Source of the DNA: Bacillota bacterium
GTDB lineage: Bacteria; Bacillota; Proteinivoracia; UBA4975
DNA length: 34,709 nucleotides
Assembly: GCA_012727415.1 (NCBI GenBank)
Contig: JAAYHI010000033.1
Span: 1 to 34,709, forward strand
Direction of reading: 5' to 3'
Part shown: positions 1 through 7,433 of the stretch, one piece after another
Position numbering within the stretch: position 1 is the stretch's first letter
Layout of the letters: every line of letters starts with the position of its first letter
The notes under the pieces: generated by a model
Database searches by the model: none
What the model saw: only the letters and a program-made list of their open reading frames with translations
Told to the model about the DNA's origin: nothing
Program-made: the position numbers and the translations under genes

Positions 1-147
1 GTATTACTCAGGTAGTGCCAGCACCGCAATGGCATCCTCAAACCCCTGGTCCAGAGTCGTCTCTACAGCCCTATTCTCAACTTCCGGGACAGCACCGGCA
101 GGTATGAAACCTACCAGTACGATGAAAACAACAATGCCACCAGCCTG

Positions 148-1884
148 ATGGAAGTTATAGATGGAGTTGCCTATACCACCAGTCTAAACTATAACGAAGA
201 TAACACCCTCAAGAGCATCACCATCAACTCTGGAGTTGATTTCGAATACTACTATGATGAAAAGGGACTACCCAACCGGGTTATCGCTAGCCTGGGCTTC
301 GGGTATAAGTTGTACACCCAATACATCTATAACCAGCGGGGCTTGCTGGAGAGCTATCAGCACGACAAGGAAACTTACACCTATGAGTTTGATAGCAAGG
401 GGAATATAACCAGAATCACCACGGGCACCGGCGATGAGGCCAGCTACACCTACGATTCCCTCAACCAGCTCAAGACCGAAAGTATTACCCAAGACGGCAG
501 TACCCGGGTAATCGCCTATGAATACGACAGCCACGGCAACATGGTCAGGAGGGTGGAAGGGAACAAAGAGACACTCTACACCTACGACCTGGACAGGCTT
601 ATCCAGATTGAGGAGAAGGAAGACGGAGTCACCACCAGCATAAAAACCCTGGCCTATGACGATGCAGGGAATCTCGTCACCGATGGAGAATACTCCTACA
701 CCTGGCAGATGGGCAGGCAGCTCCAAGGTATTTCCGGAACAGGTCTCACTACCAGTTACAAATACAATGAAAATGGCCTTCGCACCCAGAAGACCGTAAA
801 TGGCCAGACCCATGAGTATACACTGCTGGGAAGTAGTGTCACTCGAGAAGTAATTCGGGATAGCCAGGGGACCATACTGTGGACCATTCATTACTCCTAT
901 GCCGGTGACAGTACTCCTGTCAGCATGAATGTCAACGGGACGGAGTACTATTACCTGAAGAACGCCCAGGGGGATATCACCCACATTGTTGACGAGGAAG
1001 GCAATGTGGTGGCCAGCTACGAGTATGATGCCTGGGGGAACCACCTGAGCATCACTGGCGGAGAGATTGCCGAGCTTAACCCGTATAGGTACCGGGGTTA
1101 CAGATATGACAGCGAGACGGGATTCTATTCGTTACAATCACGTTATTACGATCCGGAAATTGGGCGTTTTATCAATGCCGATGATACTGATGTTTTAGGT
1201 GTTGAACAAGACAGCTTGTTACAGTTTAACCTCTTTACATATTGCCTTAACAATCCAGTCAACAGGACAGATGATAGTGGGTATTTATCAATTCCCAATT
1301 GGCTAAAAGTAACTGTAGGTGCTGTAGCTATAGCTGGATTAGCTGTTGCTACGGTTGCCACTGGTGGTGCAGCTGCGGTTATTTGTGGCGCGGCTCTATC
1401 AGGTGCAATTGCTGGAGGCGCTTCAGGAGCTGTCTTGGGCGCTGTCGGTGGTGGAATATCTGGGGGCTGGCAAGGAGCTTTAGATGGTGCTTGCTCAGGG
1501 TTTATGTCTGGCACGTTAATAGGTGGAGCGACTGGCGCCGTTGCAGCGGGATTTAATATTGCAACAGGAGCAACATCTGTGGTCGGCAAGGCACACGGTT
1601 CAACATTACACAAACTTGCGACCAATATGGAAGCAGGTAAAATGGCTGCCTCTGGGCAATATTCACAAATCGGATTGAATAAATCATTAAACACAATGGG
1701 CCTAAACGGCAAGTTGAGACCTGATGTTATTGGGATTGGGAAAAAGGGAGTTAATAAATTAGTCGAGGTTGTTAGCCCCAAACAAAGCATTAATTATATT
1801 TCTAATAAGATGAATGGAATGTTATCTAACAATCCAGGTAGTGTGGGAAAAATTGTGAGCTGGGTTAGAAATTTGTTTAAGTGA
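148..1884 (+). CDS. RHS/YD-repeat polymorphic toxin, C-terminal portion (repeat shell end, core-end motif, variable toxin tip CT1)
   Basis: The translation is full of YD/RHS repeats (RYETYQYDENNN, TYTYEFDSKGN, ASYTYDSLNQL, AYEYDSHGNM, ASYEYDAWGN). The canonical RHS core-end block YSLQSRYYDPEIGRFINADD...NLFTYCLNNPVNRTDDSGY lies at ~1123-1284. After it come an unrelated Gly/Ala-zipper hydrophobic stretch and a ~110-aa tail (1285-1884). The frame stays open and RHS-like upstream to nt 16 (TAG at 13-15), with no ATG/GTG/TTG before 148. The gene is therefore 5'-truncated or frameshifted relative to whatever lies upstream of the window. Confidence 0.85.
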   Translation: MEVIDGVAYTTSLNYNEDNTLKSITINSGVDFEYYYDEKGLPNRVIASLGFGYKLYTQYIYNQRGLLESYQHDKETYTYEFDSKGNITRITTGTGDEASYTYDSLNQLKTESITQDGSTRVIAYEYDSHGNMVRRVEGNKETLYTYDLDRLIQIEEKEDGVTTSIKTLAYDDAGNLVTDGEYSYTWQMGRQLQGISGTGLTTSYKYNENGLRTQKTVNGQTHEYTLLGSSVTREVIRDSQGTILWTIHYSYAGDSTPVSMNVNGTEYYYLKNAQGDITHIVDEEGNVVASYEYDAWGNHLSITGGEIAELNPYRYRGYRYDSETGFYSLQSRYYDPEIGRFINADDTDVLGVEQDSLLQFNLFTYCLNNPVNRTDDSGYLSIPNWLKVTVGAVAIAGLAVATVATGGAAAVICGAALSGAIAGGASGAVLGAVGGGISGGWQGALDGACSGFMSGTLIGGATGAVAAGFNIATGATSVVGKAHGSTLHKLATNMEAGKMAASGQYSQIGLNKSLNTMGLNGKLRPDVIGIGKKGVNKLVEVVSPKQSINYISNKMNGMLSNNPGSVGKIVSWVRNLFK

Positions 1885-1887
1885 GGG

Positions 1888-2388
1888 GTGAAAATAATGT
1901 GTGTTCCTTCAAAACTCAAATCCTACTTTCATCAGATAAATTCGAAAATTGATACAAATACTATTGTTAGTGGAATTGTGACATGTTGCTCTTGCTCTGA
2001 GTTTGATGTGCTATGCTATGGCAATATCAAAAAGAGTCTTCTTGGACATATATCATTATGTGATAAAACCGATGGGATTGTTGTACGCTTGCGTTGTAAG
2101 AAATGCGGAGAGGAAATCGAAGTATTCAACAGTTTTACTGATGGATATAACCGATGCATAGAAGAAAAAGTAGATTGTGTTAATTTTCAATTCCAATCAT
2201 TTTATTGCAATGCACATGAACATTCAAATATCTCTGTAGAGGTCATTTTTGAATATCCACCAAAGCAAGAGTTAATAGAAGATGAGATTACAGAATGCGA
2301 TAATGCTTTTTCTTGGATATGGATATCACTAAAATGTAACATATGCAATAAATCCTTTAAAAATTTTGTGGATTATGAAACGTCATAA
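1888..2388 (+). CDS. Cys-rich small protein, putative cognate immunity protein for CT1
   Basis: The ORF starts 4 nt after the toxin stop, with GAGGGG at 1883-1888. ATG 1897 is the better-spaced start; GTG 1888 is the ORF-track start. The protein has several Cys pairs in two halves (CCSC...RCKKC and YCNAHEH...KCNIC), suggesting zinc-ribbon-like folds. The position directly after a polymorphic-toxin tip is the classic immunity position. The region is AT-rich like the toxin tip. Confidence 0.55.
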   Translation: MKIMCVPSKLKSYFHQINSKIDTNTIVSGIVTCCSCSEFDVLCYGNIKKSLLGHISLCDKTDGIVVRLRCKKCGEEIEVFNSFTDGYNRCIEEKVDCVNFQFQSFYCNAHEHSNISVEVIFEYPPKQELIEDEITECDNAFSWIWISLKCNICNKSFKNFVDYETS

Positions 2389-2391
2389 AAA

Positions 2392-3977
2392 CTAAAAATT
2401 CCCCGCAAATCTCCAAACAATTGTTATTTCCTGCACCGTCTGTCCATTCACCGTTTCTGCATGACCAACCTGAATATTCTCGATGAGCTTATTCAATATA
2501 AAGGGCGTTAATGTGGCGATATTCAGATAGTCTGAGATGGCTTGACGTAGTTGTTCAGCGTTGGCTTGATAATCTGTCTGTTGCGCCAGCTTTGCATCAA
2601 ACACAGCAATTTTCTCTTGGATTTCTGCTTGTTCGGACTGGTATCTGTTTGTGAAGCTACATAGTTTTCATCGGATATCAGTCCGGCAGCGTGATCCTCA
2701 AACAGCTTGAAAAGCAGGGTGGAAAGTTCTTGCTGTCTGCGTTTCAGCTTGTCACGCTCAGTAGCTAATTGCCTATCAGACGTGTTGAGACCGGATCTTT
2801 CTTCCACCAGCCGATAAAAGGCTTCATCATCCTGCAATAGCTTTGCTGTTGCCCTGATACGCTCTAATACCGCTTTGTACAGGTCATCGTAAAAGATGGC
2901 ATGAGTGTGCAGACATTCGCCAGGATGGCGGTAATGGTGCATACAACGGTAATAGGTTCGCTTATCCCGACGGTGTGCCATAGACAGGCTGTGGCCGCAT
3001 TCAGAACAAACCAGAACCCCACGGAACAGATTCTCTGTTTCATAAACCGATGGTGATGGACGGGACTTGATCAACATTTGCACCTGCTCAAAATCCTCAC
3101 GGCTGACAAGGGGCTCATGGGTATTCGGTACAATTATGTATTGCTCTTTCGGCAGGGTTTGCCGTTCCTTGGTCTTGTAATTGACAATCTCACACTTGTG
3201 ATTGACCATATCCCCGGTGTAAACACGGTCTTGCAGGATTATTTGAATGGTAGCATAACACCATTCATAGACCTTGTTTGGGTTTTGGTTGTCATTGTAC
3301 CGAGAAAAGCGTGTATCGCCGTTTTTCGCCTTGTAAGCAGATGGATTGATGATTCTTTCGGCTTTCAGTGCATTATCGATCTTTACCGCACCGTAACCGG
3401 ACAGAGCCAGTGCAAAGATTTTTCTTACTACTTTGGAAGCTTCTACATCTACAATCAGTTGATTGCGGTTATGAGGGTTTGGTTTGTACCCGTATGGTGC
3501 CTGTGCACTGATGTAATAACCGTTCTTGGCTCGTTGCCTTTTTGCTGCTTTGACCTTACGGGACAGATCCTTTGCGTACATATCGTTCAGAATGTTCTTA
3601 AACGGTGCAATGTCATTGTCGTCTCGCATAGAATCAAAACGGTCATTCAGGGCAATGTAACGCACATGCTTACGGCTGAAATACACTTCGGTGTAATAGC
3701 CGGTCTGAATGTAGTCACGCCCCAAACGGCTTAAATCTTTGGTAATGACAAGGTTCACCCTGCCGTTATCAATGTCATTGAGCATCCGTTCAAAGCCCGG
3801 GCGGTTGAAGTTGAGACCGGAATAGCCGTCATCAACATAATAATCGTATACAAGAAAGCCCTGTTCACGGCAGTAGCTTTCAAGCATAGACTTTTGTGTA
3901 CCGATGCTGATACTTTCTCCGGCCTGTTCGTCGTCTTTGGAAAGACGGCAATAAAGGATTGAGGGGGGCGTAGACAT
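2392..3977 (-). pseudogene. Large serine recombinase (TndX/TnpX-like), disrupted by a frameshift near 2650-2665
   Basis: The N-terminus MSTPPSILYCRLSKDDEQAGESISIGTQK carries the catalytic-Ser motif of resolvase-type serine recombinases. It is followed by a recombinase domain and a Cys/His zinc motif (CSECGH...YYRCMHH...GEC). The ORF 2523-4067 leaves the family-typical sequence after ...LISDENYV. The frame of the downstream ORF 2392-2604 is open further upstream and reads SFTNRYQSEQAEIQEKIAVFDAKLAQQTDYQANAEQLRQAI...EITIVWRFAGNF. A single indel therefore splits one ~528-aa gene. The start is assigned to the Met 12 residues before the catalytic Ser (complement of 3975-3977). Confidence 0.85.
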
Positions 3978-4509
3978 GAATAAAACACAAAAAAAAGCCG
4001 TAATCATTTTTACTGCAATTATTGTTTTGATTGGGGGGACAATTATGATTTTTACACTTACAAACAACTCTCAATCAGTTAAAGCTTCAAAACAGCTCGT
4101 TATTGCTATTGGAGATCACGACCTATTGAAAGTGGAGGAGATTGTTAAGCAATACCCTAAAAGTGTCAATACCTTGCCTTCTATGAGTCCGTGGTGGTGG
4201 CAATTGATATCTGAACAACCACCTGTTAGTTTTCCACTGCAAAGAGCTTGTTGGGGTGGGGATTATGATATTGTTAAACTTCTCATTGATAATGGAGCCG
4301 ATGCTAATCTTGTGTGGAAAGGGATTGAGGGCAGTAAATCACCGATGATGCGTTCTGTTCTTTCGGGAAGCGAAAGAACACAAGAAATAGTTGAACTGTT
4401 ACTCGAACACGGCGCGGATAAATCCATTAAAGATAGCAGTGGAAAGACAGCCTATGATTACGCTGTAGAGGAAGACAACTTAGAACTTGCAGAATTATTG
4501 AAACCATAA
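3976..4509 (+). CDS. N-terminally membrane-anchored ankyrin-repeat protein
   Basis: GAGGGGGG lies 7 nt upstream of ATG 3976. The N-terminus is MNKTQKK followed by the hydrophobic helix AVIIFTAIIVLIGGTIMIFTL. Two clear ankyrin repeats follow (GDYDIVKLLIDNGADANL; TQEIVELLLEHGADKSIKDSSGKTAYDYAVEEDNLELAELL). Confidence 0.75.
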   Translation: MNKTQKKAVIIFTAIIVLIGGTIMIFTLTNNSQSVKASKQLVIAIGDHDLLKVEEIVKQYPKSVNTLPSMSPWWWQLISEQPPVSFPLQRACWGGDYDIVKLLIDNGADANLVWKGIEGSKSPMMRSVLSGSERTQEIVELLLEHGADKSIKDSSGKTAYDYAVEEDNLELAELLKP

Positions 4510-4572
4510 CATATTTTTAAGGCTCAGTTACCGTGCTTCCAAAGTTCTTAATTTAAACCACCACTACCATGC

Positions 4573-4748
4573 CTTAACGAGCAATGAATTTATACTCCTG
4601 TAGGAGTAAAATTCGCCTGTTCGGGGAATCCCCGAAATCCCCTCGCCACCGTTTTGTGTGCGACAACATATTTTACGCAAAGGGTTTCGGGAACTTCCCT
4701 GACAAGCGAATTTGTGGGTCTATAACCACAAATTCATTGCTCGTTAAG
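4573..4748. repeat. Compound palindromic element: perfect 19-bp terminal inverted repeats enclosing nested palindromes
   Basis: cttaacgagcaatgaattt (4573-4591) is the exact reverse complement of aaattcattgctcgttaag (4730-4748). Inside are tactcct-gt-aggagta (4593-4608), ttcgggga-a-tccccgaa (4620-4636), aattcgc/gcgaatt, gggaa-c-ttccc (4689-4699) and gaatttgtgg/ccacaaattc. The last of these competes with the outer stem. Confidence 0.65.
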
Positions 4749-4820
4749 ACAACACATTTTATATTGTTATTATTTGTGGATTCCACAGCAAAGGCAGGAT
4801 AGATGAGCAGAGATACATAG

Positions 4821-5522
4821 ACAAGTCCATCCGAGACAGGACTATATTCGTTACAATCTCGCTATTATGATCCGGAAATTGGAAGATTCATTAATGCAGA
4901 TGATACGGATACTCTACTTTGCTCACCAAATGAATTAACAGATAAAAATTTGTTTGCTTACTGTGATAATAATCCTGTTATGCGTGTTGATCATGGCGGA
5001 GATTTCTGGATGCTAATAGGTGCCGCTGTTGGTGCAGTAGTAGGTGGTACGGTTTCCGCATTTTCTCAATTAGCAACAACTGGTCAAGTAAACTGGGGAG
5101 TGGTTGGTGTTAATGCTGCTGCCGGGGCTATTTCGGGAGCATTGGCTTCGACAGGCATAGGACTTGTTGCTTCTGTTGGCATTAATGCTGCTTTGGGCGG
5201 AGGGACATATGCCGCTGAACAAGCCATTAAAGGGGAAAAAATCACGCTTGGCGGAGTAGTAGCAAGTACAGTAGCCGGTGGAATAGGTGGTGCGATAGGC
5301 GGCAAGGGAGCTAATGCAAAAGGCCTTTCAGCAGCTTGGAAAAGCGCATCAAAGGGGATTTTTAGAGAATTGCGAAGAGCCAATGTTAAATATGCAACAA
5401 AGCAAATTGCAAGATATACTGCTGAAAAGGTTGCGGTGAAAACATCAGCTAAAGTCTCTACCGGCAGGTTTATTTTCGGAGCAATTGGAAATGCAATCGC
5501 TCGCAATTTAGTTGGATATTAA
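4821..5522 (+). CDS. Orphan RHS C-terminal cassette: core-end motif plus unrelated toxin tip CT2 (no conventional start before TTG 4950)
   Basis: The open frame begins after TAG 4818-4820 and reads TSPSETGLYSLQSRYYDPEIGRFINADDTD...NLFAYCDNNPVMRVDHGGD. This is the same core-end block as 1112-1284. By hand alignment 66 of 81 nt are identical between 1112-1192 and 4832-4912. The sequence then diverges into a Gly/Ala-zipper region and a short basic tail (KGLSAAWKSASKGIFRELRRANVKYATKQIARYTAEK...). Confidence 0.7.
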   Translation, partial: TSPSETGLYSLQSRYYDPEIGRFINADDTDTLLCSPNELTDKNLFAYCDNNPVMRVDHGGDFWMLIGAAVGAVVGGTVSAFSQLATTGQVNWGVVGVNAAAGAISGALASTGIGLVASVGINAALGGGTYAAEQAIKGEKITLGGVVASTVAGGIGGAIGGKGANAKGLSAAWKSASKGIFRELRRANVKYATKQIARYTAEKVAVKTSAKVSTGRFIFGAIGNAIARNLVGY

Positions 5523-5535
5523 TGGGGTGAGCAAA

Positions 5536-6054
5536 ATGCAGATTTTAACTCGCATATTAATTCCCACACTAGTTCCGATTATCCTAGGATTAATTCTTTC
5601 TATCATTGACAAAAGCAATGACAAAGAAATAGTAAAGAGTATTACTAAAGAACATATCGTTATTCGATTGCCAAAAGCTTATTTATGGGTTGGATGCCTC
5701 GAAATCTCTTTCTTTGTCACTTGCATTGTCTTAATGACTTGGTTTCCAAATGGTACAGCAACCGCATGGGAATGGATATTATTCGTTTTATTAGCCTTTA
5801 TTGGAGTTGCTATCGTTTTAAAAACTCAAATTTGGAAAATAGAGATATTCAGAAGCAAAAACTATTTTATTTGCAGAACATTACCTTATAAGACGTATAG
5901 AATACTGTATAGTGATTGTATGAGCTATAGGTTCGGAGCCAATACTCTCGAGTTGAGAACAAAAGAAAAAACATTTCATATTGATACTCACGCAACCAAT
6001 TTTGAGTTTATGTTAGCAATGCTTATTCAACACAAGATAAGGGAGACAAATTAG
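5536..6054 (+). CDS. Multi-pass membrane protein, putative immunity protein for CT2
   Basis: The ORF overlaps or abuts the CT2 stop. GGGGTGAG lies upstream of ATG 5536; the ORF-track start is 5512. Three hydrophobic helices are visible (ILIPTLVPIILGLILSII, LWVGCLEISFFVTCIVLMTWF, WEWILFVLLAFIGVAIVL), followed by a soluble C-terminal part. The region is AT-rich. Confidence 0.6.
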   Translation: MQILTRILIPTLVPIILGLILSIIDKSNDKEIVKSITKEHIVIRLPKAYLWVGCLEISFFVTCIVLMTWFPNGTATAWEWILFVLLAFIGVAIVLKTQIWKIEIFRSKNYFICRTLPYKTYRILYSDCMSYRFGANTLELRTKEKTFHIDTHATNFEFMLAMLIQHKIRETN

Positions 6055-6056
6055 AG

Positions 6057-6167
6057 CTATACTGTTCCAGCCAATCTCCTTACAATCCGTATTTCCTGCA
6101 CTGCCTAACCGTTGATCGTTTCCGCGTGTGCAATCAGAGTTTTTCAAATTACTTAATTAAAATAAAT
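6057..6167 (-). pseudogene. Relic of the 3' end of a second large serine recombinase gene
   Basis: The minus-strand translation RIYFN*VI*KTLIAHAETING*AVQEIRIVRRLAGTV* aligns colinearly with the C-terminus of the 2392-3977 recombinase (FILNKLIENIQVGHAETVNGQTVQEITIVWRFAGNF*). In the last 23 positions 15 are identical. There are three in-frame stops. The nucleotide similarity to 2392-2500 is visible by eye. The relic is truncated at ~6167, where RHS homology starts. Confidence 0.55.
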
Positions 6168-6169
6168 TC

Positions 6170-6447
6170 GTGACCGCCGGAGAATTTACCTATACCTGGC
6201 AGTGGGGAGACAACTCCAGGGTATTAGTGGAATTGATCTCACCACCAGCTATAAGTACAACGAAGACGGCCTTCGCACCCAAAAGACCGTCAACGGCCGG
6301 ACCCATGAGTATACCTTGTTGGGCAGCAGCGTCACCCGGGGTTTATCTGGTGCTATCACCGGTGCAATAACAGGTGCTGTAAGCAATGCGGTGAAAGTTT
6401 CACAGGCTGCAAAAACCTTTGACAAAGGAACTTTTAGTTACGTGTGA
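6170..6447 (+). pseudogene. RHS core fragment (copy of the region equivalent to ~675-846 of the main gene) with a frameshift and a short novel tail
   Basis: GEFTYTWQ, then after a 1-nt frame change GRQLQGISGIDLTTSYKYNEDGLRTQKTVNGRTHEYTLLGSSVTR. This matches DGEYSYTWQMGRQLQGISGTGLTTSYKYNENGLRTQKTVNGQTHEYTLLGSSVTR of the main gene. Homology stops at ~6340 and is followed by GLSGAITGAITGAVSNAVKV...SYV*. Confidence 0.7.
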
Positions 6448-6589
6448 TATTGTCTGTAAAAGTGGATCCTTACAGACTAATCCAGTGGGTTATCATTATT
6501 TGAGTGAATATCCCCGATTAATGGATTAGCGTAGGTGGGCTTTTAGCTCGCCTTTTTTAGTCACGGAATATTTCCTATGAATTGGATAG

Positions 6590-6775
6590 CCTCGGGAATG
6601 GCCGTGAGGCTGCCTACACCTACGACCTGGACAGGCTGGTCGGGATAGAGGAATCAATAGACGGTGTCACAACTAGCACGAAAATATTGACCTATGACGG
6701 TGCAGGGAATTTCCTTACCGAGGGAGAATTTACCTATACTTGCCAGATGGGGAGGCAGCTCCAAGGTATTACAGG
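6590..6775 (+). pseudogene. RHS core fragment (copy of the region equivalent to ~553-731 of the main gene)
   Basis: AAYTYDLDRLVGIEESIDGVTTSTKILTYDGAGNFLTEGEFTYTCQMGRQLQGITG matches TLYTYDLDRLIQIEEKEDGVTTSIKTLAYDDAGNLVTDGEYSYTWQMGRQLQGISG. The 24-nt block ctacacctacgacctggacaggct is identical at 575-598 and 6613-6636. Homology ends at ~6771. Confidence 0.7.
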
Positions 6776-6938
6776 GGCGGATAAAGTAGATAGACCCAAG
6801 GGCGCCAAGAGAATAACCCATTATCTTCAGGAATTGTGTTGGTACATAGTTAGGCTGGTAATAGCGAGACCCATAAAGCGGGTAGCGGTATTTTTTTTTC
6901 CAGAGAGGGAATACTTCAAAGTGACAGGGGGGACGAGG

Positions 6939-7433
6939 GTGAAAAGGGCCAGTGATTTGCTGGGAATGCCGGTGACCGATACAAGCGGCGATTCTATTGG
7001 GGTTGTCGAAGAAGTGTTAGTGGATTTCTCCCGGGAACGCATCGCAGGGATGTTCATTGCCGATAAAGCTGCGGGTGAGTCTGGCTATATTGCCAGTGAA
7101 GACATAGCCTTCAGCCCCGATACCCTTGTAGTTCCCACTGATGCCATTGTTCAGGGTGATGGTGCAGTCATTTTCCGTCAGGGCAAGCTGACCCTGGAGG
7201 AAGTGCGCAGACTTGTGGCGGCAACCGATTCTGGCCGCCGGTTGGGCAATGTGGCCGACCTGATTGTTGAGAACACCCAGCTGGTGGCCCTGGAACTGTC
7301 TGATGGTTTGCTTCAGGACGTCTTTGCCGGCAGGAATATTCTCCCCCTGCCCATTTTCGCAGACATTGCCGCAGAGAAAATCATTGTCCCTGAAGGCGCA
7401 AGGCTGATTGCTCATGAAAGTTCAGGAGAATGA
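6939..7433 (+). CDS. PRC-barrel domain protein (two barrels)
   Basis: GTG 6939 is preceded by a GGGGGGA purine run. VKRASDLLGMPVTDTSGDSIGVVEEVLVDF... and ...GRRLGNVADLIVENTQLVALELSDG... fit the PRC-barrel pattern. The upstream part of ORF 6582-7433 is an RHS relic read through in the same frame, not part of this gene. Confidence 0.65.
   Translation: MKRASDLLGMPVTDTSGDSIGVVEEVLVDFSRERIAGMFIADKAAGESGYIASEDIAFSPDTLVVPTDAIVQGDGAVIFRQGKLTLEEVRRLVAATDSGRRLGNVADLIVENTQLVALELSDGLLQDVFAGRNILPLPIFADIAAEKIIVPEGARLIAHESSGE

What the first reader, a model, noticed from the sequence alone, without database searches (positions are those of the whole stretch)
1112..6167. RHS toxin array in which RHS-derived segments alternate with serine-recombinase tails at 2-3 nt junctions: possible recombinase-borne toxin-tip modules
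Seen in sequence, unit 1: RHS core-end block (1112-1284), CT1, small ORF ending at 2388, a 3-nt gap, then the stop codon of a minus-strand large serine recombinase at 2392. Unit 2: the same core-end block (4832-4912, 66 of 81 nt identical to 1112-1192), an unrelated CT2, a membrane ORF ending at 6054, a 2-nt gap, then the stop codon (6057-6059) of a decayed recombinase tail. That tail's translation is colinear with the C-terminus of the first recombinase, and it is itself followed by more RHS sequence (6170 onward). The array can therefore be read as tandem elements. Each element would begin exactly at a recombinase stop codon and carry a promoterless RHS core fragment plus toxin tip plus immunity gene as cargo. 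Established models for Rhs/CdiA orphan cassettes rely on homologous recombination at the core. A tight, repeated physical link to a TndX/TnpX-like serine recombinase is not part of that picture. It suggests that tips are delivered by site-specific integration next to the previous immunity gene and then swapped into the expressed gene by homologous recombination. This mechanism is an inference.
Basis: partly seen in the sequence, partly recalled or inferred. Interest (0 to 1): 0.8.

Follow-up and report, generated by a model that had tools for sequence, protein, structure and literature searches.

The report
Recombinase-borne RHS toxin-tip cassettes
The window holds decayed copies of small mobile cassettes, each carrying a toxin tip, its immunity gene and its own serine integrase, that insert at one fixed GA inside the conserved end of an RHS toxin gene and so swap the toxin in frame, a route for toxin-tip exchange that had only been postulated.

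Summary

- **Association:** In 157 related loci, LSRs at least ~43% identical to this one are almost always embedded in RHS tip arrays. LSRs below 42% never are (0 of 27).
- **Mobile unit:** It runs GA | RHS core-end, toxin, immunity gene, LSR, P arm | GA. It inserts at the GA of the Glu codon in the conserved D-x-E-T-G motif.
- **Junction evidence:** Identity between loci breaks exactly at that GA. Dyad symmetry peaks on it. Each element's own two ends form inverted repeats (13.8 of 22 positions).
- **Mobility:** One 3,214-bp element is 99.3% identical in two genomes whose flanks are only 61-69% identical.
- **Effect:** Integration fuses the new tip in frame to the RHS gene and pushes the old tip downstream.
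- **This window:** Two fossil elements of the convergent type start at 1114 and 4833. Their LSRs are dead: one frameshifted and 5'-truncated, one reduced to a ~90-nt tail. A remnant of a third element lies between them.

I found no published description. All recombination steps are inferred from sequence.

The parts
16..1884 (+). 3' part of the main RHS gene, open in frame 1 from nt 16 (an in-frame TAG lies at 13-15; the first ATG is at 148). The RHS-associated core domain covers about nt 1024-1281.
   Evidence: Pfam RHS_repeat E = 3.5e-18. TIGR03696 Rhs_assc_core at residues 337-422, E = 5e-20. Window 310-3955 is 93% identical to L022.
1114..1137 (+). Left junction (attL) of fossil element E1. 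The inferred GA crossover dinucleotide (1114-1115) is the first two bases of the Glu codon of D-S-E-T-G. The element's left inverted repeat P' follows at 1116-1137 (GACGGGATTCTATTCGTTACAA).
   Evidence: Matches the alpha-prime right-end arm of L022 and L011 as an inverted repeat at 17 of 22 positions; 0 of 10,000 shuffles reach 15. Dyad symmetry peaks on the GA. Identity between loci breaks at the GA.
1192..1884 (+). CT1, the variable toxin tip of E1: a short linker, the conserved NLFTYCLNNPVNRTDDSG end of the core domain, a glycine-rich membrane-like stretch and a C-terminal domain of unknown family.
   Evidence: Translation. No Pfam family. Conserved together with imm1 and the LSR in L022.
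1888..2388 (+). imm1, the presumed immunity gene of CT1 (166 aa, Cys-rich, no known family).
   Evidence: ORF. No Pfam or NCBIfam match. An ORF of the same length (166 aa) occupies the matching position at L022 11615-12115, inside the stretch that is 93% identical to the window.
2392..3977 (-). LSR pseudogene of E1 (TndX/TnpX-like, with DUF4368). Homology to relatives covers only 2396-3955. There is a 1-nt deletion in the A run at 2654-2655. The first ~15 codons and the upstream small ORFs are replaced.
   Evidence: Domains. 92-93% identical to P0001 and P0002. Frameshift seen against the intact L022 gene. Homology limits.
3976..4509 (+). Membrane-anchored ankyrin-repeat protein. Best read as the orphan immunity gene of a third, mostly deleted element of the co-directional 'alpha' type. 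Its start codon overlaps the pseudo-start of the truncated LSR.
   Evidence: Ank_2 and Ank Pfam hits. Its position matches that of the immunity gene upstream of the same structured element in L022. The immunity role is an inference.
4560..4770 (+). Strongly structured 211-nt element with 22-nt terminal inverted repeats (4570-4591 and 4730-4751). In relatives it lies between the immunity gene and a co-directional alpha-type LSR.
   Evidence: Inverted repeat. RNA fold -84 kcal/mol, z = -10.2. No Rfam hit. Copies in L022, L023, L038 and L072.
4811..4856 (+). Junction between the alpha-type remnant and fossil element E2. It comprises the right-end P arm remnant (4811-4832, homologous from 4814), the GA (4833-4834), and the left inverted repeat P' of E2 (4835-4856, GACAGGACTATATTCGTTACAA).
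   Evidence: The left arm matches the P' of alpha-type elements at 13 of 22 positions but convergent-type P' at only 8-9 of 22. The right arm matches the alpha-prime arm at 15-16 of 22. Homology to L023.
4833..5522 (+). Promoterless orphan consisting of the RHS core-end (TIGR03696 positions 26-75) plus CT2, a glycine-zipper-rich tip unrelated to CT1. Stop codons lie in frame just upstream.
   Evidence: 84% direct repeat with 1113-1191. No toxin family found.
5512..6054 (+). imm2, the presumed immunity gene of CT2 (180 aa, membrane protein, weak DUF6560 match).
   Evidence: ORF. DUF6560 E = 1.8e-4, below the Pfam cut-off.
6057..6143 (-). The last ~29 codons of the LSR of E2, with one internal stop. 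The rest of the gene and the element's right end are deleted.
6164..6775 (+). Debris at the distal end of the array. RHS core fragment 6164-6338 is fused to a glycine-rich tip remnant that runs to 6447. A second RHS core fragment lies at 6574-6775. Neither is bounded by the GA site.
   Evidence: 79% direct repeats with 710-845 and 576-737. Matches to L022 core copies.

Best explanation
The region is an RHS toxin-tip array built by repeated site-specific integration of small (about 3-5 kb) mobile cassettes.

Structure of a cassette:
- its own copy of the last ~50 codons of the RHS core (from E-T-G onward), fused to a toxin tip;
- the cognate immunity gene;
- a TndX-like large serine recombinase (LSR), with zero to three small ORFs;
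- a right-end arm (P) that is an inverted repeat of the cassette's left end (P').

Proposed mechanism:
- As a circle, P-GA-P' forms attP.
- The LSR recombines attP with the GA of the Glu codon in the conserved D-x-E-T-G motif of a resident RHS gene (attB).
- The incoming tip is thereby joined in frame to the expressed RHS shell.
- The old core-end, tip and immunity gene are shunted downstream as a promoterless orphan, now preceded by the P arm.

History read from this window:
- An element E2 (CT2, imm2, convergent LSR) entered first.
- An alpha-type element followed. Its remains are the ankyrin gene, the structured element and the P arm remnant.
- E1 (CT1, imm1, convergent LSR) entered last.
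- Deletions and a frameshift then killed all three recombinases and removed the right ends of E1 and E2. The array is now frozen.

Shown directly: the anatomy, the association, the junction positions, the inverted repeats, and the same element in different genes.
Inferred: the circular form, catalysis by the LSR, expression and delivery of the new tip, and the order of events.
For: - **Specific association.** The closest LSR homologues lie beside RHS toxin and immunity genes. Of the 77 genome loci, 64 carry an RHS core-end within 6 kb of the LSR: 40 have a co-directional core-end within 300 nt of the LSR stop, 7 have the convergent layout and 17 have one elsewhere within 6 kb. In metagenome loci the association stops sharply below about 42% identity (0 of 27).
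- **Junctions at GA.** Dozens of locus pairs share one side of the GA at 93-100% identity and diverge on the other, with the break at or within a few bases of the GA.
- **Dyad symmetry.** For 77 orphan sites it peaks on that GA alone: 9.57 of 22 against 4.6-7.1 at the 24 other offsets tested.
- **Terminal inverted repeats.** Reconstructed attP (an element's right arm plus its own left end) scores 13.8 of 22 over 38 elements. That compares with 9.1 for attR, 8.7 for attB and 7.3 for attL.
- **Window ends.** 1116-1137 and 4835-4856 match the clade's right-end arm at 17 and 16 of 22 positions; 0 of 10,000 shuffles reach 15.
- **Mobility.** A 3,214-bp element is 99.3% identical, without gaps, in L030 (Lachnospiraceae MAG) and L032 (Blautia isolate). 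It is bounded GA to GA, and the flanks are only 61-69% identical.
- **Intact version.** L022 is 93% identical over window 310-3955 and carries the intact E1 LSR. Its two small ORFs and its alpha-prime arm follow beyond that stretch.
- **Family precedent.** The LSR is about 37% identical to annotated TndX, and its best solved relative is TnpX. TndX always needs a central GA and prefers DNA encoding a conserved protein domain (PMC4430133).
Against: - No circular form, empty site for the same RHS gene, or recombination activity has been observed. Everything rests on integrated copies, many of them from MAGs and metagenome contigs.
- For the window's own convergent clade I found no case of one element in two different RHS genes. 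That demonstration comes from a co-directional relative about 53% identical.
- The tight and varied immunity-gene/LSR-tail junctions are not explained by GA-to-GA integration.
- Some rearrangements do not use the GA: the L012 break at the NADD codons, the P0001 module between housekeeping genes, and RHS core fragments of variable length. Homologous or illegitimate recombination therefore also shapes these arrays.
- The 79-nt core-end repeats could in principle support RecA-dependent integration.
Confidence: 0.8

Rival explanations
1. Each unit starts at a recombinase stop codon and carries a promoterless core fragment, tip and immunity gene. It integrates next to the previous immunity gene, and the tip is later moved into the expressed gene by homologous recombination.
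For: Tight 2-3 nt junctions between immunity-gene stops and LSR stops occur in the window and in relatives: a 4-nt gap in the P0002 loci and a 26-nt overlap in the P0001 loci. Homology between LSR genes of different elements ends just after the WRFAG codons.
Against: - Co-directional LSRs end in the same way after (W/Y)RF(A/I)G, so that point is simply the natural end of the protein.
- Tail-to-immunity spacing varies from 4 to 63 nt, sometimes with a hairpin. No symmetry or motif is present there.
- The immunity genes on the proposed target side are unrelated, so there is no shared attB.
- The P0001 LSR keeps its tail-side toxin and immunity gene in four contexts, while nothing RHS-like follows on its head side.
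- GA-bounded inverted repeats define different ends.
Confidence: 0.05
2. Classical C-terminal displacement by homologous recombination alone (Jackson et al. 2009). Circles carrying a core fragment and a tip integrate by RecA-dependent crossover in the conserved core. The recombinase genes are passengers or unrelated transposons.
For: - Direct repeats of the core-end flank the inserted block.
- Core fragments of variable length occur in the window (6164-6338, 6574-6775) and in L022.
- Homologous activation of orphan tips has been shown experimentally in Salmonella (PMC3967940).
Against: - Orphan core-ends in 77 non-redundant sites all begin at the same GA rather than at variable points.
- The non-coding arm left of the GA is conserved per LSR subfamily and is an inverted repeat of the element's own left end.
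- The same element sits in RHS genes whose flanks are only 61-69% identical, which is poor substrate for homologous recombination.
- The LSR association is clade-specific.
Confidence: 0.08
3. A host-domesticated switch. The recombinase is kept by the host to excise or re-order tips, giving programmed switching between stored toxins, rather than serving horizontal spread.
For: Arrays store several tips, each preceded by an att-like site. Excision between attL and attR would re-fuse the RHS gene to the next stored tip in frame (geometry).
Against: - Near-identical elements occur in different genomes and different RHS genes.
- Each tip brings its own LSR, and several LSR subfamilies compete within one array.
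- LSRs decay quickly after insertion, as in this window and in L022. That fits a selfish element better than a maintained host function.
Confidence: 0.05

Closest known systems
Tn5397 (TndX) and Tn4451/Tn4453 (TnpX): elements moved by DUF4368-type large serine recombinases
   Same: - Same recombinase branch: about 37% identical to annotated TndX, best solved relative TnpX, same four-domain architecture.
- A central GA dinucleotide at the junctions.
- A preference for DNA encoding a conserved protein domain, Fic for TndX (PMC4430133).
- Belongs to the 'multi-targeting' DUF4368 clade of Durrant et al. 2022 (PMC10083194).
   Different: - The elements here are 3-5 kb, with no conjugation or resistance genes.
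- The target is the RHS core-coding sequence.
- The element's left end is itself coding sequence that completes the target gene in frame with a new toxin domain.
- LSRs below about 42% identity, the TndX level, show no RHS association.
Rhs C-terminal displacement and orphan tip arrays (Jackson et al. 2009; Koskiniemi et al. 2014)
   Same: A main rhs gene is followed by displaced tips with immunity genes. The newest tip is attached to the core. A circular tip-bearing intermediate was postulated (PMC2935791).
   Different: [quoted passage not shown] Here each tip carries its own integrase, and the junctions sit at one fixed dinucleotide.
Integrons
   Same: Site-specific capture of promoterless cassettes at a fixed site downstream of a promoter. 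Older cassettes are pushed distally.
   Different: - An integron has one resident tyrosine integrase plus attI and attC sites. Here the recombinase is of the serine type and is carried by every cassette.
- Here the insertion creates a protein fusion rather than a separate gene.
- Kirchberger et al. 2017 noted the integron analogy for T6SS effector/immunity arrays but found 'no evidence' of an integrase (PMC5361080).
Recombinase-associated acquired interbacterial defence (rAID) islands of Bacteroidales (Ross et al. 2019; cited from memory, paper not held)
   Same: A recombinase is linked to arrays of polymorphic-toxin immunity genes and toxin fragments.
   Different: As I recall it, those islands use a tyrosine recombinase, collect immunity genes for defence, and do not rebuild an expressed toxin gene. 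I could not check this here.
Integrative elements that insert into a gene's 3' end and supply a replacement 3' end (for example tRNA-targeting islands and prophages; general knowledge)
   Same: The element carries a copy of the target's 3' portion, so the target stays intact after insertion.
   Different: Here the replacement is deliberately non-identical. It changes the gene's functional domain (the toxin) and adds the matching immunity gene.

Membership tests
RHS / YD-repeat polymorphic toxin locus | RHS/YD repeats and the RHS-associated core domain (TIGR03696) preceding a variable C-terminal tip | tested here: met
   PF05593 E = 3.5e-18. TIGR03696 E = 5e-20, above the cut-off, at residues 337-422.
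RHS / YD-repeat polymorphic toxin locus | Tip followed by a cognate immunity gene, with orphan tip/immunity pairs downstream | tested here: inconclusive
   The gene order fits: CT1/imm1, the orphan core-end with CT2/imm2, and the ankyrin orphan. No toxin or immunity family was recognised. Function is not testable here.
Large serine recombinase, TndX/TnpX-like (DUF4368) branch | Resolvase catalytic domain with its serine, Recombinase domain, zinc ribbon, and C-terminal DUF4368 | tested here: met
   All four Pfam domains are present. The YCRLSKDDEQ motif is present. About 37% identical to annotated TndX. TnpX is the best PDB hit, E = 7.5e-35.
Large serine recombinase, TndX/TnpX-like (DUF4368) branch | Intact, potentially active gene | tested here: not met
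   The window copy has a 1-nt deletion and a replaced 5' end. The second copy is a ~29-codon tail. The gene is intact in L022, P0001 and P0002.
LSR-mobilised integrative element | Junctions at a fixed central dinucleotide flanked by imperfect inverted repeats (att half-sites) | tested here: met
   Symmetry peaks on the GA. Reconstructed attP scores 13.8 of 22. The window ends score 17 and 16 of 22 against the clade's right-end arm. Identity breaks at or within a few bases of the GA.
LSR-mobilised integrative element | The same discrete element in different target contexts | tested here: met
   L030 and L032: 3,214 bp at 99.3% identity, flanks 61-69%. This is a co-directional relative. For the window's convergent clade there is only partial evidence: the same right arm followed by different displaced tips in L011 and L022.
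LSR-mobilised integrative element | Circular intermediate and recombinase-dependent integration and excision | not testable with these tools
   Needs reads spanning P-GA-P' or a recombination assay.
LSR-mobilised integrative element | Both ends present in this window, so the element could still move | tested here: not met
   There is no alpha-prime right-end arm anywhere in the window, and the LSRs are dead. The window holds fossils.
Integron | Tyrosine integrase IntI with adjacent attI and attC-bounded cassettes | tested here: not met
   The recombinase is of the serine type. Each cassette has its own recombinase. No attC-like repeats were found.
Homologous-recombination C-terminal displacement (Jackson model) | Core fragments of variable length attached to displaced tips | tested here: inconclusive
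   The orphan at 4833 and 77 orphan sites elsewhere start at the same GA. However, 6164-6338, 6574-6775 and L022 6970-6363 are core fragments of variable length.

The most novel reading that the evidence does not exclude
A previously undescribed and widespread class of self-integrating 'toxin-tip cassettes' exists in Bacillota and Mycoplasmatota, including Lachnospiraceae, Oscillospiraceae, Erysipelotrichales and Mollicutes-like lineages. A dedicated clade of TndX-like serine integrases reads a conserved protein-coding motif of RHS genes (D-x-E-T-G). It inserts at its GA and thereby re-arms the host's RHS toxin in frame while archiving the old tip. These cassettes would be the 'episomal tips' predicted in 2009. 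Several integrase subfamilies, each with its own arm sequences and matching codon usage in G-(F/L)-Y-x-x-x-S, compete for the same site.
Probability: 0.6. Interest if true: 0.9.

Novelty: new variant of a known kind. Interest (0 to 1): 0.85.

Why it matters
How polymorphic toxins such as Rhs, CdiA and T6SS effectors acquire new tips while keeping old ones as orphans has been explained only by hypothetical homologous recombination with unseen circular intermediates.
- Jackson et al. 2009 wrote explicitly that no integrase co-occurs with Rhs (PMC2935791).
- Kirchberger et al. 2017 wrote that there was no evidence for one in T6SS effector/immunity arrays (PMC5361080).

These elements supply a concrete, testable vehicle and enzyme. 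The circular junction, the attB and the crossover dinucleotide can all be predicted, and they can be tested in isolates such as Blautia sp. HCP3S3_G3 or Mycoplasmatota strain zrk2.

The finding also gives three further things:
- a natural example of an integrase whose attachment site doubles as coding sequence, with codon choice co-evolving with the recombinase;
- a family of LSRs with a defined attB of roughly 40-50 bp in a conserved gene, possibly useful as tools;
- an explanation for recombinase fragments scattered through RHS arrays in gut Firmicutes.

Tried and rejected
- **Exact-protein look-ups.** imm1 and the ankyrin gene are not on record, so the source contig and its upstream RHS part could not be fetched.
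- **RNA genes.** Rfam and tRNA scans of the window found nothing.
- **Family searches.** Pfam, NCBIfam and PHROGs gave nothing for CT1, CT2, imm1 or the small ORFs next to the LSRs. The small ORFs of the two architectures are not alike.
- **LSR 3' end as a recombination site.** I considered this because homology between elements stops after WRFAG. I rejected it because co-directional LSRs end the same way and the spacing to the immunity gene varies from 4 to 63 nt.
- **Crossover at the NADD codons.** I first placed it there, at the right edge of the repeat, because of the L012/L013 break. The symmetry scan and the pairwise breakpoints then showed that the general site is the GA about 70 nt upstream.
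- **Alpha-prime arm at the far end of the P0001-type module.** None was found at the L001/L002 break at 7111.
- **Metagenome scan.** It yielded only one further close relative (L098), so mobility of the window's own clade could not be shown directly.
- **Literature search.** The tool failed on eight of its calls. Later queries pairing 'Rhs' with 'large serine recombinase' or 'serine recombinase' returned only unrelated papers. Subscription journals are not covered, so prior description cannot be excluded.

Full report
**1.

- The window opens inside an RHS gene. It has RHS repeats and the TIGR03696 RHS-associated core domain at residues 337-422 of the frame open from nt 16.
- The 79 nt at 1113-1191 recur at 4832-4910 with 84% identity. 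The second copy encodes core-domain positions 26-75 and is followed by an unrelated tip.
- imm1 ends at 2388. Three bases later, on the other strand, lies the stop codon of a recombinase with Resolvase, Recombinase, zinc-ribbon and DUF4368 domains.
- The membrane ORF ends at 6054. Two bases later comes the stop codon of a ~29-codon remnant. This remnant aligns with the C-terminus of the closest intact homologue at 17 of 25 residues (E = 1e-9; DNA alignment).
- RHS core sequence resumes at 6164.
- New points: the first recombinase is dead. It has a 1-nt deletion in the A run at 2654-2655. Homology to every relative stops at 3955, so its first ~15 codons and its upstream genes have been replaced by the ankyrin gene region.

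**2. The link to RHS is specific and widespread**

- The closest homologues, P0001 (92%) and P0002 (93%), also sit tail-to-tail with an immunity gene downstream of RHS toxins. These are Tox-REase-9 with a 142-aa immunity protein, and a 2,372-aa RHS with a YxiG-type immunity protein.
- A genome scan returned 77 loci with LSRs 42-100% identical to P0001, from Lachnospiraceae, Blautia, Faecalimonas, Erysipelotrichales, Oscillospiraceae and Mollicutes-like lineages.
- Among those 77 loci:
  - 40 have an RHS core-end on the same strand within 300 nt of the LSR stop;
  - 7 have the convergent layout seen in the window;
  - 17 have a core-end within 6 kb;
  - 7 have none;
  - 6 are too short to judge.
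- A metagenome scan supplies an internal control:

| LSR identity to P0001 | Informative loci with RHS core-end nearby |
|---|---|
| 50% or more | 18 of 18 |
| 42-49% | 18 of 25 |
| 36-41% (the TndX level) | 0 of 27 |

- This group of recombinases is therefore dedicated to RHS.

**3. Where the elements begin and end**

- I aligned 137 non-redundant core-end sites on the Glu codon of (x)-E-T-G.
  - At 54 sites the left flank encodes the RHS core (...YRGYYYD-x).
  - At 77 sites the left flank is non-RHS DNA carrying a motif typical of the LSR subfamily. An example is gccgggtacatatataagtccagcc|GA.
  - For co-directional LSRs this motif lies 36-106 nt after the end of the LSR alignment.
- Many pairs of loci share one side at 93-100% identity and diverge on the other, with the break at or within a few bases of the GA that opens the Glu codon.
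- Dyad symmetry over 22-nt arms peaks on that GA alone: 9.57 of 22 against 4.6-7.1 at the other offsets tested.
- I then paired each element's right arm (P) with the same element's own left end (P', the first 22 nt after the left GA). Mean symmetry over 38 elements:

| Site | Arms paired | Matches of 22 |
|---|---|---|
| attP | P + P' | 13.8 |
| attR | P + B' | 9.1 |
| attB | B + B' | 8.7 |
| attL | B + P' | 7.3 |

- The elements therefore have terminal inverted repeats next to a GA at both ends, as expected for attachment sites of a TndX/TnpX-type recombinase.
- TndX always requires a central GA, and in C. difficile it targets DNA encoding a conserved (Fic) domain (PMC4430133).
- The LSR here is about 37% identical to annotated TndX, and its best solved relative is TnpX.

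**4. Mobility of the whole unit**

- L030 (a Lachnospiraceae MAG) and L032 (Blautia sp. HCP3S3_G3) carry the same 3,214-bp element, 99.3% identical and without gaps.
- It runs from GA to GA and contains the core-end, a toxin, a 145-aa immunity gene, a 65-aa ORF, the LSR and the P arm.
- The RHS sequence upstream and the displaced tip downstream are only 61-69% identical between the two loci.
- The mobile unit therefore includes the tip and immunity gene that lie upstream of the recombinase.

**5. The window's own clade**

- Here the LSR module is inverted. The order is core-end | toxin | immunity gene | LSR (convergent) | two or three small ORFs | alpha-prime arm | GA. This layout is seen in L011/L013, L022, L023 and L024, with sizes of 3.9-5.0 kb.
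- L022 (Firmicutes bacterium UBA5509) is 93% identical to window 310-3955.
  - It shows the intact form of E1: the same RHS end, CT1 and imm1, an open 545-aa LSR, and ORFs of 94 and 103 aa.
  - Its right end is the arm tcgtaacgaatacaattcagcc|GA.
- Window 1116-1137 and 4835-4856 are inverted repeats of that arm at 17 and 16 of 22 positions. None of 10,000 shuffles reaches 15.
- Both window core-end blocks are thus left ends of convergent-type elements, each followed by its toxin, immunity gene and recombinase tail.
- The 22 nt left of 4833 instead match the left ends of a different, co-directional subfamily (alpha) at 13 of 22, against 8-9 of 22 for the convergent type.
- Three features mark a third, mostly deleted element between E1 and E2: the ankyrin gene, the structured element at 4560-4770, and that arm remnant. 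In L022 and L038 the structured element sits between an immunity gene and an alpha-type LSR.
- No alpha-prime arm survives anywhere in the window. With all recombinases dead, the array is frozen.

**6.

- The central idea, that tips are carried by recombinase elements, is supported. The unit boundaries are not.
- The recombinase belongs with the tip it faces. The identical P0001 module (toxin fragment, immunity gene, LSR, 59-aa and 93-aa ORFs) recurs with different DNA on either side, and with housekeeping genes rather than another tip on its head side.
- The end of homology after WRFAG is simply the natural end of the protein, since co-directional LSRs stop there too.
- The spacing from tail to immunity gene varies from 4 to 63 nt, sometimes with a hairpin.
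- Integration at the GA joins the new tip to the expressed gene directly. The proposed second step by homologous recombination is unnecessary.

**7. What remains unexplained**

- At least six unrelated immunity genes abut the convergent LSR tail within 4-16 nt. I have no mechanism for how such junctions form. Compaction, or selection for antisense control of the LSR by read-through from the RHS operon, are guesses.
- L012 differs from L013 by a sharp break at the NADD codons, with non-RHS DNA on the other side.
- The P0001 module lies between housekeeping genes without a recognisable right arm.
- RHS core fragments of variable length (window 6164-6338 and 6574-6775; L022 6970-6363) show that homologous or illegitimate recombination also acts on these arrays.

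**8. Comparison with what is known**

- Jackson et al. 2009 proposed tip displacement through homologous recombination with circular intermediates. [quoted passage not shown]
- Koskiniemi et al. 2014 showed activation of an orphan tip by homologous recombination (PMC3967940).
- Kirchberger et al. 2017 drew the integron analogy for T6SS effector/immunity arrays but found no evidence of an integrase (PMC5361080).
- Durrant et al. 2022 catalogued DUF4368 LSRs as 'multi-targeting'. The words Rhs and toxin do not occur in their main text (PMC10083194).
- Full-text queries combining Rhs with (large) serine recombinase returned only unrelated papers. The library lacks most subscription journals, so a prior description is possible.
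- I class the finding as a new variant of known kinds: a TndX-like integrative element combined with Rhs C-terminal displacement. The new logic is a self-integrating cassette whose attachment site is coding sequence and whose insertion swaps the toxin domain of a host gene.

**9. Confidence**

- The anatomy, the association, the junction positions and the inverted repeats are direct results.
- The circular form, catalysis by the LSR, expression of the new tip and the order of insertions in this window are inferences.
- I put 0.8 on the site-specific tip-cassette explanation.

Noticed in passing
window 4560-4770: A 211-nt element with 22-nt terminal inverted repeats folds far better than shuffles (-84 kcal/mol, z = -10.2) and has no Rfam match. 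Copies occur in L022 (91%), L038 (two, 80%), L023 (two, one inverted relative to the RHS gene) and L072. It lies between an immunity gene and a co-directional alpha-type LSR. It could be a non-coding RNA or a MITE-like element.
   Followed up: partly
L012 7126 versus L013 4255: Two contigs that are 99.98% identical diverge exactly at AATGCAGATGAT (the NADD codons, about 70 nt 3' of the GA site). In L012 the other side is AT-rich non-RHS DNA with a small Cys-rich ORF. This is a sharp rearrangement that does not use the usual site.
   Followed up: partly
window 1-310: There is an in-frame TAG at 13-15 in the RHS reading frame. Between nt 294 and 310 the window lacks about 150 codons present in the L022 RHS gene (window 73-294 matches residues 1203-1276; window 310 onward matches from residue 1430). 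Whether the main RHS gene is intact cannot be judged from the window.
   Followed up: partly
L001-L010 (for example L001 9607-9632): In the P0001 loci the LSR has lost its own stop codon. It reads 26 nt into the antisense strand of the immunity gene, giving the C-terminus ...WRFAGEVNSVKCSC.
   Followed up: no
L011 4674-5966, also L012 and L016: A group II intron reverse transcriptase (RVT_1, GIIM) sits inside the displaced old tip just beyond the element's right end. An IS110-family transposase lies further on in L011.
   Followed up: no
window 6582-7433: The mechanical ORF list fuses an RHS core fragment (6574-6775) in frame with the PRC-barrel gene that follows. This is probably a chance open frame at the decayed end of the array rather than a real fusion protein.
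   Followed up: no
window 1500-6500 versus 7000-34709: The tip array has 33-47% G+C, against 52-60% in the flanking housekeeping DNA (alaS and neighbours). This is consistent with foreign origin of the cassettes.
   Followed up: no
many loci, for example L022, L023, L071 and the window: Several LSR subfamilies, each with a different right-end arm motif, occur in the same array. Each subfamily uses its own codon and residue variant of G-(F/L)-(Y/F)-x-x-x-S at the element's left end (FYSLQS for the window clade, LFYVGS for the alpha type). This suggests that coding sequence and recombinase binding site co-evolve.
   Followed up: partly
window 3122-3133: A one-mismatch copy (TATTCGGTACAA) of the 12-nt core of the left inverted repeat lies inside the LSR gene. 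It is probably chance.
   Followed up: no
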